Virus record (IMG/VR): IMGVR_UViG_3300038829_000263
Coordinates: 70,111-134,110 of that record
Reading direction: 5' to 3' (one strand)
Source of the DNA: a virus
Length of the DNA: 64,000 bases
The notes below the pieces were generated by a model. It was not told where the DNA came from. It worked only from the letters and a program-made list of their open reading frames with translations, and did not search any database. This document shows, piece after piece, positions 3 through 4,447 of this stretch. Each line of letters starts with the position of its first letter. The first letter of the stretch is position 1. A program made the translations under genes and the position numbers.

Positions 3-1532
3 AACGAGTACATCCGCTGGGAGACGAAGCCCATCGAAGTGCTCGTCGGGTCGAGCGAGCTGCACGCGATCGGCCGCTCGCTGTTCGCCCTCCTGGCGGA
101 CGAGCTGAACTACTTCGCCCAGGGCGCCCGCACGGCCAACCGCGCGCGCGAGCTCGTGGCCGAGGTCTCCCGGCGTCTTGAGGGCCGCTTCGTCCAGGAG
201 GGCGGGGACATGCCGGGCATCGCGATCTACGTGTCGCAGACCCGCACCCGCTCCGACTACCTCGAGCAGCGCATCCGGGAGAAGCGCGGCGCCCCGGGCG
301 TCATGTGCGTGCGCGGGCCGCGCTGGGCCTTCAACCCGATGGGCTACCACCGCGACAGGAACCGCGGGTTCCGGCCCGACCTGGGGGACCCGTTCTTCCG
401 CACGTTCGTGGGCACGGACGTCACGGACCCGAAGATCCTCGACACGGTCGCGCGCCAGCCCGATGGGACGTACTTCGTCGAGCCCATCGACTCGAAGGAC
501 AAGCCGTCCGAGGAGCTCGTGCTCAAGGTCCCGATCGTCCACTACTCGGCCTTCAAGGACGACGTGCACGGCGCACTGCGCATGCTCGGCGACGTGCCCT
601 CCGGCGCCTTTACCCCGTTCTTCCCCCGGCACGAGGCCGTGGCGGCGTGCTTCGACGAGTCGCTGCCCTTCCCCTTCTCGGCCCAGAAGATCCCGTGCTA
701 CGAGCGCGCGGCCGCGGAGCTACAGGACAGCTTCGACATCAAGGCCGTCACGCGCGTCTACATGGGCCGCCTCCGGCCGCTCCGGCACCCGGACGCCGGG
801 CGCTACATCCACCTCGACCTCGCCCAGGGCGCCGGCGGCCAGGCGGACCTCGCGGGCATGGCGATGGTCCACTCGTCGGGGCACTACATCTCGGAGCGCG
901 ACCCCGAGTCGGATGCCCAGGCCGGCGTCGGCTCCTCCGAGGTCGTGATGAACGTGGAGGTCGACTTCTACGTTGCGCTCACCGGCGGCCCGTACGGCGA
1001 GAGCATCGACTTCCGCAAGGTGCGCAAGTTCATCGGCTGGCTCCGCAACTGCGGGTTCCACATCAAGCTCGTCACGAGCGACCAGTTCCAGTCGTTCGAC
1101 ATGCTGCAGCGCCTGCGCGAGGCCGGCTTCCAGACGGACCGGCAGAGCGTAGACAAGACGAGCCAGCCGTACCGCGTGCTGCGCGGGGCGGCCTCCGAGG
1201 GGCGGCTGGCGCTGCCCTGGCCTCCTGGCGTCATGCCCGTGCGCGTGGGCCTGGAGGACGCGCGCGACCGCGTGATGGAGGCGCTGCCGCGGGTGCACCT
1301 CTACCGCGAGGTCACGGGCCTCGAGCACGACGTGCAGAAGGACAAGGTCGACCATCGCGCGGAGAACCCCGATGGCTCGAAGGGCTCGAAGGACGTCGCC
1401 GACGGCCTCGCCGGCGCCACGTACCGCTGCCTGGCCGACACGGCCACCGTGGGCGAGATGCCCACCGGCGGCCACGTGCCCCAGCAGTCGCGCGTGCTCT
1501 CCTCGCTCAACCGCTACATCGACAAGGCGTGA
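3..1532 (+). CDS. terL: Terminase large subunit, 5'-truncated by the window edge
   Basis: The frame is open from base 3. It has a Walker B-like LLADELNYF and RNase H-like nuclease motifs YIHLDLA, VTSDQFQS and KVDH...GSKDVAD, and lies upstream of the portal. Confidence 0.9.
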   Translation, partial: NEYIRWETKPIEVLVGSSELHAIGRSLFALLADELNYFAQGARTANRARELVAEVSRRLEGRFVQEGGDMPGIAIYVSQTRTRSDYLEQRIREKRGAPGVMCVRGPRWAFNPMGYHRDRNRGFRPDLGDPFFRTFVGTDVTDPKILDTVARQPDGTYFVEPIDSKDKPSEELVLKVPIVHYSAFKDDVHGALRMLGDVPSGAFTPFFPRHEAVAACFDESLPFPFSAQKIPCYERAAAELQDSFDIKAVTRVYMGRLRPLRHPDAGRYIHLDLAQGAGGQADLAGMAMVHSSGHYISERDPESDAQAGVGSSEVVMNVEVDFYVALTGGPYGESIDFRKVRKFIGWLRNCGFHIKLVTSDQFQSFDMLQRLREAGFQTDRQSVDKTSQPYRVLRGAASEGRLALPWPPGVMPVRVGLEDARDRVMEALPRVHLYREVTGLEHDVQKDKVDHRAENPDGSKGSKDVADGLAGATYRCLADTATVGEMPTGGHVPQQSRVLSSLNRYIDKA

Positions 1533-1535
1533 CGC

Positions 1536-2087
1536 ATGGGCCTCGCGGCGGAGACTCTCGTGCGGCGGCTCGACGGGACGGACGCGGCCATCGCGGACCT
1601 GGCCGACGCCTGGGAGGCGTCCCCGGATCACATCTCCGTGGGCGTGTTCTCCGTGCAGGACCCGCAGATCCCGGTCGCGGCCGCCGGCGCGACCCTCGCC
1701 GGCCTGATCGTCGGCGCGCACGCGGTGCAGCCGCGCGTCTCCGGCCGGAACGTGACCCTCGTGACCGTGGAGCTCGACACGGGCGAGAAGATCCGCTGCA
1801 CGCCCACGCACCTGTTCATGCTCGTGGACGGCTCCTTCCGGGCGGCGGGGAAGCTGATGCTGGACGACAACCTGCGCGTCCTGGCGACGGACATCGCCCC
1901 CGGCACGAACCCCGACCTGATGCCTCTGCCCGACCTGAGCGGGCAGATCATCGCGAAGAGCTTGGTCTACCCGGAGATCAGGGTCGTCTCTGTTACCATG
2001 GCCGCCGTGGGGGACGCCTACGACATGTCGGTCCCCCGCAACTGGAACTACGGGCTGGCGACGCGCATCTTCGTCAACGGCGGGTAG
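1536..2087 (+). CDS. Stand-alone Hint-domain (mini-intein-like) protein with degenerate catalytic termini
   Basis: Intein block A-like GLAAETLVRRLDG, block B IRCTPTHLFML, and block F/G-like DAYDMSVPRNWNYGLA..IFVNGG. It has its own start and stop codons and no exteins. Confidence 0.85.
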   Translation: MGLAAETLVRRLDGTDAAIADLADAWEASPDHISVGVFSVQDPQIPVAAAGATLAGLIVGAHAVQPRVSGRNVTLVTVELDTGEKIRCTPTHLFMLVDGSFRAAGKLMLDDNLRVLATDIAPGTNPDLMPLPDLSGQIIAKSLVYPEIRVVSVTMAAVGDAYDMSVPRNWNYGLATRIFVNGG

Positions 2088-2096
2088 GAGGGTCGG

Positions 2097-2486
2097 ATGT
2101 CGGCGACGTACTCGGTTCAGGTGACGCTCACCCGCACGCCGGACCCGAACGACGTGCAGGGCGCGTGCGGGCCTCGCTCCTACAACCTCGACCTCCCCGG
2201 CCTCGTCGCGCAGGAGCTGTCGCTCAAGGTCCCGCCGGCCGCGGTCGACCTCCCGCTCCTGGTCCCAGGCGTCGGCGCGCCCCAGGTCGTGTTCATCCGC
2301 TCGGACATCCCGGGCATCACGTACAAGCGGAACCTGGAGACGGTCGCGAACACCCTCGGCGCCGGCGGCTTCCGCCTGGAGGCCGGCGCGCCCGGCGCAG
2401 GGAGCCCGACCCTGACGCAGCTCCTGTTCTCGAACCCTGGCGGGGCCGCCGCCCAGATCTACGTCCTCGTCGCCGGCCCCGGGTAG
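2097..2486 (+). CDS. Hypothetical beta-rich protein, possibly virion-associated
   Basis: AGGAGG RBS, GC3-biased codons, and position between terminase and portal. Confidence 0.75.
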   Translation: MSATYSVQVTLTRTPDPNDVQGACGPRSYNLDLPGLVAQELSLKVPPAAVDLPLLVPGVGAPQVVFIRSDIPGITYKRNLETVANTLGAGGFRLEAGAPGAGSPTLTQLLFSNPGGAAAQIYVLVAGPG

Positions 2487-2515: not shown

Positions 2516-4447
2516 ATGGCAGAGCGCGGCTTCTTTGGGCGGTTGCTGGACGAGATGGTCGTCCATCCGTGGGCCGCCCTGGCCAAGGTCGGCGGCCTCG
2601 ACCGCCTGCCCGATCGCCGCGTCTCGCGCAAGCGCTACCTGGGCGCGCGCCAGGACGACGCCGATCCCCTCCGGCGGTCCTCGCGCACCCAGGCGATCTA
2701 CAAGGCCCTGGGCGTCTACGCGCTCGAGGAGTCGCGCTCGGAGCTCTACGCCAACTACCGCGAGATGGACACGGACCCCATGATCGCGGCCGTGCTCGAC
2801 GCCTTCGCGGAGGACGCGACGCAGGTCGACCCCGAGCACAAGCGGATCGTCTGGGCCGAGGCGCAGAACGAGGAGGTCAGGAAGCTCGTCACGGCCACGA
2901 TGGACCGCCTGCGCCTGGAGCAGTGGGCGTTCCCCATCTGCCGGGCCCTGGGCCGGGACGGGGATGTGTTCATGCACATCGCCGTCGCCCGCGGCCAGGG
3001 CGTCGTGGCACTCCGGCCCTACGAGCCCTGGACCGTGGCCCGCATCGACGACGACATCGGGCGCCTCATCGGCTTCGGCCCGGCGAACGAGATGGGCGAC
3101 GCGCAGCAGACCGACCGCTCGGCCGTCCCGCACTACCGCGTGCTCCACTTCCGCCTGCCCCCGCGCGAGCTGACGGACAAGTACGGCGTGGCCGCGTCCT
3201 TCCTGTGGGGCTCGCGCCTCATCTGGCGCCAGCTCCAGTTGATGGAGGACCAGGTCGTGATCCAGCGCCTGCTGCGCCGGCCTGACCGCCTCCTGGCGCT
3301 CATCGACACGACGGGCCTCTCGCACGACGAGGCGTGGCAGACGGTCAAGGACTGGGAGCGGCGCCTCTACCGGGAGTGGTACCTCAACACCCAGCAGAAC
3401 GTGTTCTCGTCCATCGGCACGCCCCTCGACATCGCGAAGGACGTCGTGCTCCCGCGCGGCGAGAACAACCAGACGCAGTTCACGAACTTCCCGGCCACGA
3501 ACACGAACGACATCCTGCGCGACCTGGACCTCTTCCTCGCGCGCCTCGCGGCCGGCGTCGGGTTCCCCCTGGGCTTCATCGGCCGGGGCGGGGACTACCA
3601 GCCCGGGCAGTCGCTCTCGCGCCAGTACCACCCCTTTGCCAAGCGCGCGGGCCGCCTCCAGCAGTCGTTCCTGCCCGAGGTCGCGCGCCTCCTGATGATC
3701 GACCTCGCGTTCCGGGGCCTCGACCCGCTGCACCCCCGGAATGCCTTCTCCCTCCACATGGCGTCCGTCTCGCCCATCACCGAGATCGAGCGCAACGAGG
3801 TCATCCAGCTCAAGACGGACCGGATGGAGCGGCTCCTCACGCTCGGTCAGAACGCCCAGCTCAACATGGCCGAGTGGATCCCCCTCGTGCTCGAGAAGCA
3901 CGGCGGGTTCTCGCCCGACCTCGTGAAGAAGCTCTACCAGCCGAAGCCGGAGCGCGAGCTGCCCCAGGGCTTCCGGCCGCCCCCGGCGCCGACGCTCGAC
4001 GTCAACTACTCGCCCTCCCCTGGGCCGGCGATCGACCCATCCCAGGTCGCCCAGGCGGCCGCACCTCAGCCGTCCTACCCGGACAACCCGCCGCTCCAGG
4101 CCGAGGACAAGCAGGCGCTACTCGCCCAGGTCGGCGGCCTGGCGCCGGCGATCGTCGAGTCCGTGGCCTTCGGCTCCCTCGGGATCCAGCCCCTGGAGGA
4201 GACGATGAAGCAGTGGCGCCCGGACCGCGAGAAGCTCGTGGAGGCCGCGGAAGGTAAGGCCGTGGAGGAAGGGCGAGGCGCCCCGCGCGAGGATCTCTTG
4301 ATGGAAGGCGCAGAGACGCGAGTCGGCGAGCTGGCCTCCGACTTCGTCAAGCAGTCCATGATGGAGAGCCGCCGCAAGGCGACGATCACGCGCCTCACGC
4401 TCGTCACGGCCCTGGCCGGGCTCCCGGAGGAGGGCGCCGGTGCCTGA
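2516..4447 (+). CDS. Portal protein (T4 gp20-like)
   Basis: YREMDTDPMIAAVLD, LQLMEDQVVIQRLLRRPDR, DVVLPRG and DILRDLDLF resemble gp20 family motifs. It follows the terminase and has an AGGAG RBS. Confidence 0.9.
   Translation: MAERGFFGRLLDEMVVHPWAALAKVGGLDRLPDRRVSRKRYLGARQDDADPLRRSSRTQAIYKALGVYALEESRSELYANYREMDTDPMIAAVLDAFAEDATQVDPEHKRIVWAEAQNEEVRKLVTATMDRLRLEQWAFPICRALGRDGDVFMHIAVARGQGVVALRPYEPWTVARIDDDIGRLIGFGPANEMGDAQQTDRSAVPHYRVLHFRLPPRELTDKYGVAASFLWGSRLIWRQLQLMEDQVVIQRLLRRPDRLLALIDTTGLSHDEAWQTVKDWERRLYREWYLNTQQNVFSSIGTPLDIAKDVVLPRGENNQTQFTNFPATNTNDILRDLDLFLARLAAGVGFPLGFIGRGGDYQPGQSLSRQYHPFAKRAGRLQQSFLPEVARLLMIDLAFRGLDPLHPRNAFSLHMASVSPITEIERNEVIQLKTDRMERLLTLGQNAQLNMAEWIPLVLEKHGGFSPDLVKKLYQPKPERELPQGFRPPPAPTLDVNYSPSPGPAIDPSQVAQAAAPQPSYPDNPPLQAEDKQALLAQVGGLAPAIVESVAFGSLGIQPLEETMKQWRPDREKLVEAAEGKAVEEGRGAPREDLLMEGAETRVGELASDFVKQSMMESRRKATITRLTLVTALAGLPEEGAGA

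What the first reader, a model, noticed from the sequence alone, without database searches (positions are those of the whole stretch)
1536..2087. Stand-alone, apparently catalytically dead mini-intein gene between terminase and portal
Seen in the sequence: the whole 183-aa ORF follows an intein Hint scaffold. VELDTGEKIRCTPTHLFMLVDGSF..AGKL.LDDNL and DAYDMSVPRNWNYGLA closely recall GyrB-type inteins, yet the ORF has its own start and stop and no exteins. The Cys/Ser1 position is Gly (M-GLAAET), the block F His is Trp, and the usual FVHN|S end reads FVNGG-stop. Block B TxxH and the block F Asp are retained, and codon bias is intact. Established: terminases and portals of large phages are frequent intein hosts. 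Inference: an intein has been domesticated as a non-splicing protein, such as a packaging/head accessory factor or an intein-binding decoy. The C-terminal Gly-Gly may be incidental.
Basis: partly seen in the sequence, partly recalled or inferred. Interest (0 to 1): 0.8.

Follow-up and report, generated by a model that had tools for sequence, protein, structure and literature searches.

The report
Dead stand-alone intein gene after terminase
A small phage gene right after the DNA-packaging motor gene encodes a complete intein fold that can no longer splice. It descends from an intein that normally sits inside that motor gene, and selection has kept it across a clade of uncultured phages for a job that is still unknown.

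Summary
ORF 1536-2087 (183 aa) is a real gene in a 143-kb, 70% GC uncultured T4-like phage, between a very divergent TerL and a T4-type portal. Its AlphaFold model (pLDDT 82) matches mini-inteins (Foldseek E 1e-9). It has no exteins, Gly in place of Cys1, and no terminal Asn or +1 nucleophile.

Seven relatives exist, all stand-alone and none with a splicing nucleophile. The four that have DNA on hand all show TerL-Hint-ORF129-portal. dN/dS is 0.21 and 0.20 in two independent pairs. The stops are not errors and there is no conserved read-through fusion.

New here:
- On a tree of 98 Hint domains the family is one clade. It groups (SH-aLRT 97) with inteins at one TerL nuclease-domain site, G|SKD, which is window TerL G660|S661. 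That site is empty here and lies 150 nt upstream of the gene.
- On the portal tree the gene-bearing phages form one clade, so the gene was gained once.
- The family gained two conserved segments of its own.

"GyrB-type" is not, and the function remains untested. My best guess is a non-catalytic partner of the packaging machinery.

Earlier notes of this scan report unrelated dead Hint genes beside terL or portal in other phages, so the phenomenon recurs.

The parts
3..1532 (+). 3' part of the large terminase gene terL. The full gene is 708 aa and starts 595 nt before the window (L002:7517-9643). It is very divergent.
   Evidence: phrog_2699 terminase large subunit, E 0.005. No Pfam hit. 30 of the 145 best intein-bearing hits are its homologues. 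47-58% identical TerLs lie next to homologous portals in 19 IMG/VR loci.
1383..1388 (+). Empty intein insertion site G660|S661 of TerL (GSKG|SKDVADGLAGA), in the nuclease-domain Asp motif. It lies 150 nt upstream of the Hint start codon.
   Evidence: Related TerLs carry inteins here, with junctions xxG|CFTGDT(K/R)V ... GVFVHN|SKD(V/L)A. The C-extein of P0040 aligns to TerL 661-676.
1536..2087 (+). Stand-alone, splicing-dead Hint (mini-intein-fold) gene, 183 aa. It starts 3 nt after the terL stop (TGAcgcATG). Its stop codon overlaps the GGAGG ribosome-binding site of the next gene.
1539..1565 (+). Block A remnant, GLAAETLVR. Gly2 occupies the Cys1 position. The start codon sits at the former -1 extein position.
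   Evidence: TIGR01445 alignment. Alignment with parent inteins beginning G|CFTGDTRVR.
1671..1712 (+). Family-specific insertion of about 14 aa (IPVAAAGATLAGLI; family consensus PVAVAGATMAGLIV). It is absent from the parent inteins. Model confidence is low here.
   Evidence: alignment. pLDDT is 59-64 for residues 41-60.
1797..1811 (+). Block B, RC-TPTH. Cys88 is invariant and inherited from the parents. Thr89 and His92 are kept only in this copy; relatives have Gln at the His position.
1887..1973 (+). Family-specific conserved linker, TDIAPGTNPDLMPLPD..., placed where parent inteins carry a homing endonuclease or a short loop. It is predicted to be disordered and is a candidate partner-binding segment.
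   Evidence: Invariant T118, P122, P146 and others. pLDDT below 50 at 119-133 and 136-143. Parents compared.
2013..2084 (+). Block F/G remnant, DAYDMSVPRNWNYGLATRIFVNGG. The penultimate His, the terminal Asn and the +1 nucleophile are all missing.
2097..2486 (+). ORF129, a small all-beta jelly-roll protein of unknown function. It or an analogue lies between terL and portal across the wider phage group, with or without the Hint gene.
   Evidence: 35-65% identical homologues in L003-L006. AF2 pLDDT 76. Only generic beta-sandwich matches, Z <= 8.5. Analogous 137-142-aa ORFs in Hint-less relatives.
2516..4447 (+). Portal protein, T4 gp20 type.
   Evidence: Pfam Portal_T4 E 1.1e-26. phrog_213.

Best explanation
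The ORF encodes an exapted intein. An intein that once interrupted the neighbouring terminase gene at its nuclease-domain site G|SKD became a separate gene directly downstream of an intein-free terL. It took a start codon at the former -1/-2 extein position. It lost every splicing nucleophile and carries no homing endonuclease. It acquired two conserved segments of its own. It has since been inherited vertically, under purifying selection, through one clade of uncultured T4-like phages.

The protein cannot splice or cleave anything. It is made together with TerL, because the genes are 3 nt apart or their stop and start overlap.

Inferred, not shown: it works as a non-catalytic Hint-fold binding protein for the packaging machinery, meaning TerL (possibly near the old insertion site) or the portal vertex. 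The conserved, flexible linker and the hairpin insertion would be the contact surfaces.
For: Fold and identity.

No exteins and no nucleophiles in any of the 8 members. Position 1 is G or P. The terminal Asn is replaced by G, D, A or V. No +1 Cys/Ser/Thr.

Origin:
- 72 of the 145 best intein-bearing hits are TerL or portal homologues of this phage.
- The best-scoring inteins sit at TerL G|SKD.
- The best single intein, P0040, is 37% identical over 126 aa, and its C-extein is TerL 661-676.
- IQ-TREE of 98 Hint domains: the stand-alone genes form one clade (SH-aLRT 98), inside a 97-supported group with 14 inteins of that site, against 76 others.
- The L005/L006 N-terminus, V-G-G-F-T-A-D-V-R-V-R, mirrors xG|CFTADTRVR.

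Selection:
- dN/dS is 0.21 for L003/L004 (dS 0.54) and 0.20 for L005/L006 (dS 0.76). TerL is 0.13 and portal 0.15.
- GC3 is 0.97.

Synteny and coupling: TerL-Hint-ORF129-portal in all four relatives with DNA. Junctions are TGAcgcATG or a TAGTG overlap.

Single gain and vertical descent: on the portal tree the Hint-bearing phages form one clade (support 100) against 14 Hint-less loci, with the same internal topology as the Hint tree.

New conserved segments.
Against: - No functional evidence of any kind: no proteomics, interaction or expression data.
- The gene is absent from the sister clade, and from L011 inside or next to the clade. Those phages package DNA without it, so it is dispensable for the basic machinery.
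- It evolves faster than its neighbours: 29-45% identity against 56-67% for TerL and portal.
- Net charge is not conserved; pI ranges from 4.8 to 9.3.
- Its position next to terL may simply reflect where it was born, not where it acts.
- The family is tiny (8 sequences). dN/dS rests on two pairs and a simple counting method.
- The Hint tree has only 138 columns and SH-aLRT support only.
Confidence: 0.7

Rival explanations
1. A slowly decaying relic. An intein was stranded outside its host gene, like the Arthrobacter Arth_1007 intein pseudogene. It is still open by chance or by hitch-hiking in a tightly packed operon and has no function of its own.
For: All catalytic residues are lost. It diverges faster than its neighbours. 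It is absent in the sister clade and in L011. Most members no longer hit Pfam. There is a precedent: PMC3196547.
Against: dN/dS is 0.20-0.21 in two independent pairs with unsaturated dS. The ORF is intact in all 8 members across portal divergence of about 0.6 substitutions per site. Conserved family-specific segments were gained after the escape. GC3 is 0.97.
Confidence: 0.1
2. A weapon or shield in intein and phage conflicts. The dead Hint could protect the empty TerL G|SKD homing site from the homing endonucleases of intein-bearing relatives. Or it could interfere with maturation of intein-containing TerL precursors of co-infecting competitors.
For: It descends from exactly the intein lineage that targets the adjacent empty site. 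That site is heavily invaded in related TerLs. TerL in all Hint-bearing loci covering that region lacks an intein at that site.
Against: The Hint-less sister clade also has the site empty in all 14 loci, so there is no association. The window protein is acidic (pI 4.8), charge is not conserved, and there is no DNA-recognition or nuclease domain. No mechanism of this kind is known.
Confidence: 0.08
3. A virion structural or decoration protein of the head or portal vertex that has nothing to do with TerL. The Hint fold would be reused only as a compact beta scaffold.
For: It lies in the terL-portal interval next to a small jelly-roll protein. Its stop codon overlaps the ribosome-binding site of that gene.
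Against: No similarity to any known virion protein (PHROGs gave none). It is accessory within the phage group. There is no proteomic evidence.
Confidence: 0.1
4. Not a separate gene. It would be a C-terminal Hint domain of TerL made by TGA read-through (terL and the ORF are in the same frame here), acting as a Hedgehog/BIL-type autoprocessing module. Alternatively the stops are sequencing errors.
For: In the window the terL stop TGA, one codon and the ATG are in frame.
Against: L003 has two in-frame stops in between. In L004 the ORF is in another frame. In L005/L006 the start overlaps the stop in another frame. There is no nucleophile at position 1 in any member. The identical protein was seen on 3 contigs.
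Confidence: 0.02

Closest known systems
Class 1 inteins of phage large terminases, in particular those at the nuclease-domain site G|SKD of this TerL family (e.g. in P0110, P0097, P0044, P0012, P0040). General background: Kelley et al. 2016, PMC5050341; Gosselin et al. 2025, bioRxiv 10.1101/2025.01.02.630785.
   Same: Same fold and common ancestry: 37% identity to P0040, and one group on the tree. It shares the blocks A, B, F and G scaffold, including the RCTP(D/T)H motif. It lies in the same genomic neighbourhood.
   Different: No exteins. Position 1 is Gly or Pro. No terminal His-Asn and no +1 Ser. No homing endonuclease. Two new conserved segments. Inherited vertically instead of by homing. 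The mycobacteriophage TerL inteins described so far all sit in the ATPase domain, not the nuclease domain.
Arthrobacter sp. FB24 Arth_1007 intein (Tori and Perler 2011, PMC3196547)
   Same: A phage-derived intein left without a real host protein. It lacks essential residues, including the block B His, and was experimentally shown not to splice.
   Different: That case is a single locus interpreted as a pseudogene, and it still has 66 aa of flanks. Here there is a family of 8 under purifying selection with conserved synteny and newly conserved features.
Yeast HO endonuclease and WHO elements
   Same: An intein turned into a free-standing, non-splicing gene that serves its carrier.
   Different: HO keeps and uses the LAGLIDADG nuclease, with the Hint part as an accessory. 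The phage protein has no nuclease domain at all, so the Hint fold itself must be what is selected.
Hedgehog Hog domains and bacterial intein-like (BIL) domains
   Same: Hint fold used outside classical protein splicing.
   Different: Those remain autocatalytic (N-terminal Cys, cleavage or ester transfer) and are fused to the protein they process. This one has no nucleophile and no fusion partner.
Other stand-alone dead Hint genes beside terL or portal reported by this scan in unrelated phages (e1-5922200, e1-5915150, e1-5888869, e1-5857032, e1-5997413, e1-6005408, e1-5367808)
   Same: Same theme: a complete Hint fold, no splicing residues, its own gene, adjacent to terL or portal, and reported as conserved.
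   Different: No sequence look-alike to this protein, so they are probably independent events. Most lie upstream of terL. Those notes were not checked here.

Membership tests
Hint (Hedgehog/intein) fold superfamily | Horseshoe-like all-beta Hint fold with pseudo-two-fold symmetry | tested here: met
   AF2 model with pLDDT 81.6. Foldseek PDB hits are exclusively inteins, BIL and Hog domains: E 1.6e-9 to 1e-4, TM by target up to 0.88.
Pfam PF14890 Intein_splicing | Score at or above the curated gathering threshold (35.8 bits) | tested here: not met
   30.2 bits, E 4.5e-7. Five relatives were scanned: four score nothing and P0002 reaches only E 0.015. Homology is nevertheless clear.
Functional class 1 intein | Inserted in frame within a host protein (N- and C-exteins) | tested here: not met
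   It has its own start and stop. The N-extein is only fMet. The C-extein is 0-7 residues in the 8 members.
Functional class 1 intein | Cys, Ser or Thr at intein position 1 | tested here: not met
   Gly in the window, P0002, P0003, L005 and L006. Pro in P0004, L003 and L004.
Functional class 1 intein | Block B TxxH | tested here: inconclusive
   Present in the window copy (T89, H92). Replaced by x-x-x-Gln in all seven relatives.
Functional class 1 intein | C-terminal (His)-Asn followed by a Cys/Ser/Thr +1 residue | tested here: not met
   The parents end GVFVHN|S. The window ends FVNGG-stop. The others end HDAG, HDGG, YA+6 aa, or SV.
Class 3 intein | Trp-Cys-Thr signature with the nucleophilic Cys at block F position 4 | tested here: not met
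   Block F position 4 is Asp163 here, and Asp, Gly or Ser in relatives. The only invariant Cys (C88) is the parental RC-TPDH residue.
Split intein / fractured gene | The Hint fold is divided between two polypeptides, each fused to an extein | tested here: not met
   The whole fold is in one ORF. No other Hint domain exists in the 143-kb genome.
HO-type domesticated intein | Retained homing-endonuclease domain between the two Hint halves | tested here: not met
   Only a 29-residue linker lies between blocks B and F. No nuclease family hit.
Hedgehog/BIL autoprocessing domain | Fused C-terminally to the processed protein, with an N-terminal Cys nucleophile | tested here: not met
   No conserved fusion to TerL and no Cys1.

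The most novel reading that the evidence does not exclude
Dead, endonuclease-free inteins that have escaped from terL or portal genes could form a recurrent, so far undescribed class of phage packaging accessory proteins. Each would keep affinity for the protein it once interrupted. Here that is the TerL nuclease domain around G660|S661. Each would use that affinity to regulate the protein in trans, for example by holding the terminase nuclease in check until the motor docks on the portal. This locus would be the clearest example, because its parent intein lineage and its former insertion site can both be named.
Probability: 0.2. Interest if true: 0.85.

Novelty: new variant of a known kind. 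Interest (0 to 1): 0.62.

Why it matters
Inteins are generally seen as selfish elements. Their only well-documented exaptations keep a catalytic activity: the HO nuclease, Hedgehog autoprocessing, and conditional splicing switches.

Here the bare splicing fold has been kept by selection for a long stretch of phage evolution, without any chemistry and without a nuclease. Its ancestor is identifiable, an intein of the adjacent gene, and so is the site it left.

That gives a concrete and testable case of a molecular parasite turned into an ordinary protein. It also gives a candidate new partner of the phage DNA-packaging motor.

This scan has noted unrelated dead Hint genes next to terL or portal in other phages. 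The event may therefore be recurrent, which would make it a general evolutionary route and not a curiosity.

Tried and rejected
The genomic context of P0002, P0003 and P0004 could therefore not be fetched. Context comes from IMG/VR and one JGI metagenome contig only.
- The single-sequence TerL scan of IMG/VR found nothing. The genome-contig scan found no relative. There is no hit in cultured phages.
- Read-through or fusion with TerL was rejected from the relatives' junctions.
- Descent from the real TerL intein of relative L003 (site G215|S216) was rejected. There is no significant similarity, E 1.8.
- GyrB-type ancestry rests only on a structural look-alike row in the Atlas. Sequence and tree point to TerL-site inteins.
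- Class 3 or class 2 intein chemistry was rejected on residues.
- A DNA-binding decoy is unlikely because pI is acidic and not conserved.
- A T4-type prohead-protease site at the N-terminus was considered. It is not conserved (LAAE here, LTGD in relatives), so it was dropped.
- The fold of ORF129 was sought as a clue to the module. Only generic jelly-roll matches came back: Foldseek E >= 0.004 and VIA Z <= 8.5.
It was not taken as related.
- Four literature searches found no description of a conserved stand-alone, nuclease-free dead intein in phages. The library is incomplete, so this is not proof of absence.

Full report
**Setting.** The window is bases 70111-134110 of a 143,219-bp IMG/VR virus record (flagged provirus, CheckV 100% complete) with about 70% G+C throughout. 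The finding lies at the start of the window. A large ORF runs in from the left (3-1532). It is followed by the 183-aa ORF (1536-2087), a 129-aa ORF (2097-2486) and a 643-aa ORF (2516-4447). The last is a T4 gp20-type portal (Pfam Portal_T4, E 1e-26). The first is the 3' part of a 708-aa gene (L002:7517-9643). It is so divergent that Pfam misses it. It is nevertheless a large terminase. It hits phrog_2699 weakly. Its homologues sit next to homologous portals in every related contig. It also carries the terminal nuclease Asp motif KDVADGLAGA; that reading is my own knowledge of TerL nuclease motifs.

**The observation.** The ORF is exactly as described, with ATG 3 nt after the terL stop (TGAcgcATG). 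Its TAG stop lies inside the GGAGG ribosome-binding site of the next gene. GC3 is 0.97, identical to TerL and portal.
- It matches Pfam Intein_splicing (E 4.5e-7, 30.2 bits, below the 35.8-bit gathering score).
- It matches the NCBIfam intein N-terminal model from residue 4.
- A search of 1.84 billion representatives gave 555 hits at E <= 1e-3, nearly all long intein-bearing proteins.
- An AlphaFold2 model built on nine sequences reached pLDDT 81.6 and pTM 0.77.
- Foldseek against the PDB returned only inteins and their BIL and Hog kin. The top hits were the Ssp and Npu DnaE, Ssp DnaB, NrdJ-1 and RecA mini-inteins (E 1.6e-9 to 1e-6, TM by target 0.73-0.88).

The Hint fold is therefore established as well as prediction allows.

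**It is a family, and it stands alone everywhere.** The closest hits are short proteins: P0002 (197 aa), P0003 (216), P0004 (212), P0005 (an N-truncated gene call of the L003 copy) and P0089 (185). Profile and pattern searches added P0156 and four loci with DNA, L003, L004, L005 and L006. That makes eight distinct members in all.
- All begin M/V-G or M/V-P followed by the block A pattern (L/V/F)-T-G-D-T-x-V-R.
- All end without His-Asn: FVNGG, FAHDAG, FVHDGG, FVYA plus six residues, or LVSV.
- The block B His is Gln in every member except the window copy.

No member can perform any of the four splicing steps. With only fMet upstream, there would be nothing to splice.

**Read-through or a sequencing error is excluded.** In the window, terL and the ORF happen to share a frame. 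L003 has two in-frame stops between them. In L004 the ORF is in another frame. In L005 and L006 the GTG start overlaps the TAG stop. The identical window protein is recorded on three contigs.

**Selection and synteny.** All four relatives with DNA show TerL-Hint-ORF129-portal.

| Gene | dN/dS, L003 vs L004 | dN/dS, L005 vs L006 |
|---|---|---|
| Hint | 0.21 (dS 0.54) | 0.20 (dS 0.76) |
| TerL | 0.13 | 0.13 |
| Portal | not available (L004 ends before it) | 0.15 |
| ORF129 | 0.14 | 0.37 |

These are Nei-Gojobori values. Comparisons with the window itself are saturated at synonymous sites. The gene evolves faster than its neighbours (29-45% identity against 56-67%) but is clearly constrained at the protein level.

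**Where it came from.** I used the window's own intein-free TerL and portal as probes. Of the 145 best intein-bearing hits, 30 are TerL homologues and 42 are portal homologues of this phage group.
- I scored each individual intein with the family profile and mapped its flanks. The best scorers cluster at one TerL site, with junctions xxG|CFTGDT(K/R)V ... GVFVHN|SKD(V/L)A.
- That site is G660|S661 of the window TerL (GSKG|SKDVADGLAGA, window 1383-1388). It is empty here and lies 150 nt upstream of the Hint start.
- The best single true intein, P0040, is 37% identical over 126 residues (E 4e-23). Its C-extein aligns with TerL 661-676.
- I built a maximum-likelihood tree of 98 Hint domains (138 columns, LG+G4, SH-aLRT support only). 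The eight stand-alone proteins form one clade (98). A 97-supported split groups them with 14 inteins of the G|SKD site, against 76 inteins of other TerL sites, portal sites and other hosts.
- The L005/L006 N-terminus, V-G-G-F-T-A-D-V-R-V-R, reads like the parental xG|CFTADTRVR. The -1 Gly is retained, Cys1 is changed to Gly, and a start codon was recruited from the extein.

How the intein moved from codon 660 to just past codon 708 is not known. The real TerL intein of L003, at a different site (G215|S216), is unrelated. The window genome contains no other Hint domain.

**What changed after the escape.** I aligned the family against its parents.
- Lost: Cys1, the block B His (kept only in the window copy), and the terminal His-Asn.
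- Gained: a roughly 14-residue insertion (family consensus PVAVAGATMAGLIV, window residues 46-59).
- Gained: a conserved 29-residue linker (TDIAPGTNxDLxPxPD..., residues 118-146), exactly where the parents carry a homing endonuclease or a short loop.

Both new segments are the low-confidence parts of the model. That is what one expects of segments that order only on a partner, although the shallow alignment may also explain it.

**Distribution.** A portal-profile scan of IMG/VR returned 19 loci. The Hint gene is present only in the window, L003 (also fetched as L007 and L026), L004, L005 (also L009) and L006 (also L010).

Fourteen loci with TerL 47-55% and portal 55-58% identical to the window lack it. 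There, terL is followed by one of three things:
- a 137-142-aa beta-rich analogue of ORF129;
- the portal directly;
- other inserts, of 186 and 588 aa.

On a portal tree the Hint-bearing phages form one clade (support 100) opposite the 14 Hint-less loci. The internal topology matches the Hint tree. L011 falls with the Hint-bearing clade but has terL, a 125-nt gap and then ORF129. It is either the earliest branch or one loss.

The gene was therefore gained once and has co-diverged with the phage. It is also an accessory, not a core component. The terL-portal junction is a place where this group accumulates extra genes.

**How it most likely works.**
Shown:
- It is a Hint fold.
- It lacks the residues for splicing or cleavage.
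- It has no nuclease domain.
- It is translationally linked to terL.
- It is under purifying selection.

Inferred: the protein acts by binding rather than catalysis, most plausibly on the packaging machinery with which it is co-expressed, using its two newly conserved flexible segments. One attractive version is residual affinity for the TerL nuclease domain it once interrupted. I give the general adaptor reading about 0.35-0.4 and the identity and origin statement about 0.85.

Against a packaging role:
- Sister phages do without the gene.
- Charge is not conserved (pI 4.8-9.3).
- Its position may only record its birthplace.

The rivals (relic, conflict factor, virion protein, read-through domain) are weighed in their own section.

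**Comparison with what is known.** Terminase and portal genes are the commonest intein hosts in phages (PMC5050341; bioRxiv 10.1101/2025.01.02.630785). In mycobacteriophages all described TerL sites are in the ATPase domain, whereas the parent site here is in the nuclease domain.
- A stranded, inactive, phage-derived intein is known from Arthrobacter (Arth_1007, PMC3196547). It is a single locus regarded as a pseudogene.
- The classical domesticated intein, yeast HO, kept its nuclease.
- I found no description of a conserved, nuclease-free, splicing-dead intein kept as a phage gene.
- BFVD and the ESM Atlas contain other short Hint-only viral proteins of unknown status.

Earlier notes of this scan report unrelated stand-alone dead Hint genes beside terL or portal in several other uncultured phages. 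None resembles this protein in sequence. I did not check those notes. If they hold, the event is recurrent.

**Verdict.** The interpretation 'domesticated, non-splicing intein' is supported and now has a named ancestor. The function is unknown. I class it as a new variant of a known kind (Hint-fold exaptation), with interest 0.62.

Noticed in passing
L003:4232-5488 (relative IMGVR_UViG_3300037264_008105); corresponds to window TerL G215|S216, upstream of the window: The TerL of this relative carries a real class 1 intein of about 419 aa (VG|CVAEGTLI ... GIGCSN|SAKL). Its middle region is long, low-complexity and apparently degenerate. The same site is empty in the window phage. This intein is unrelated to the stand-alone Hint gene that lies downstream in the same contig.
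   Followed up: partly
window 1383-1388 (TerL G660|S661): This nuclease-domain site, two residues before the KDVAD Asp motif, is a heavily used intein insertion point in the TerL family. At least 16 of the 90 best-scoring inteins sit here. The TerL intein sites described in mycobacteriophages are all in the ATPase domain.
   Followed up: partly
Proteins P0006, P0020, P0022, P0032 and others: Portal and TerL homologues of this phage group carry up to four inteins in one gene. P0006, for example, is 2039 aa with four Hint domains. This is an unusually dense intein load.
   Followed up: no
window 2097-2486: ORF129 is a small jelly-roll protein with no informative structural match. It or a 137-142-aa analogue ending ..VTAIYGS sits between terL and portal across the wider group. 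It is a conserved but unassigned member of the packaging and head module.
   Followed up: partly
L020:2512-3072; L023:508-2274; L024:5207-6973: Other relatives have different genes inserted at the same terL-portal junction: a 186-aa ORF and a 588-aa ORF. The junction seems to be a hotspot for accessory genes.
   Followed up: no
It shares only a 25-residue DGS..A..L.PGD.LR hairpin motif with the family (hhalign probability 58%), and Pfam gives nothing. Homology is not established.
   Followed up: partly
L002:7517-9643 (terL; window 3-1532 is its 3' part): The large terminase is undetectable by Pfam, NCBIfam and PDB sequence search. Only PHROGs finds it, at E 0.005. Automatic annotation of this phage group would miss terL.
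   Followed up: partly
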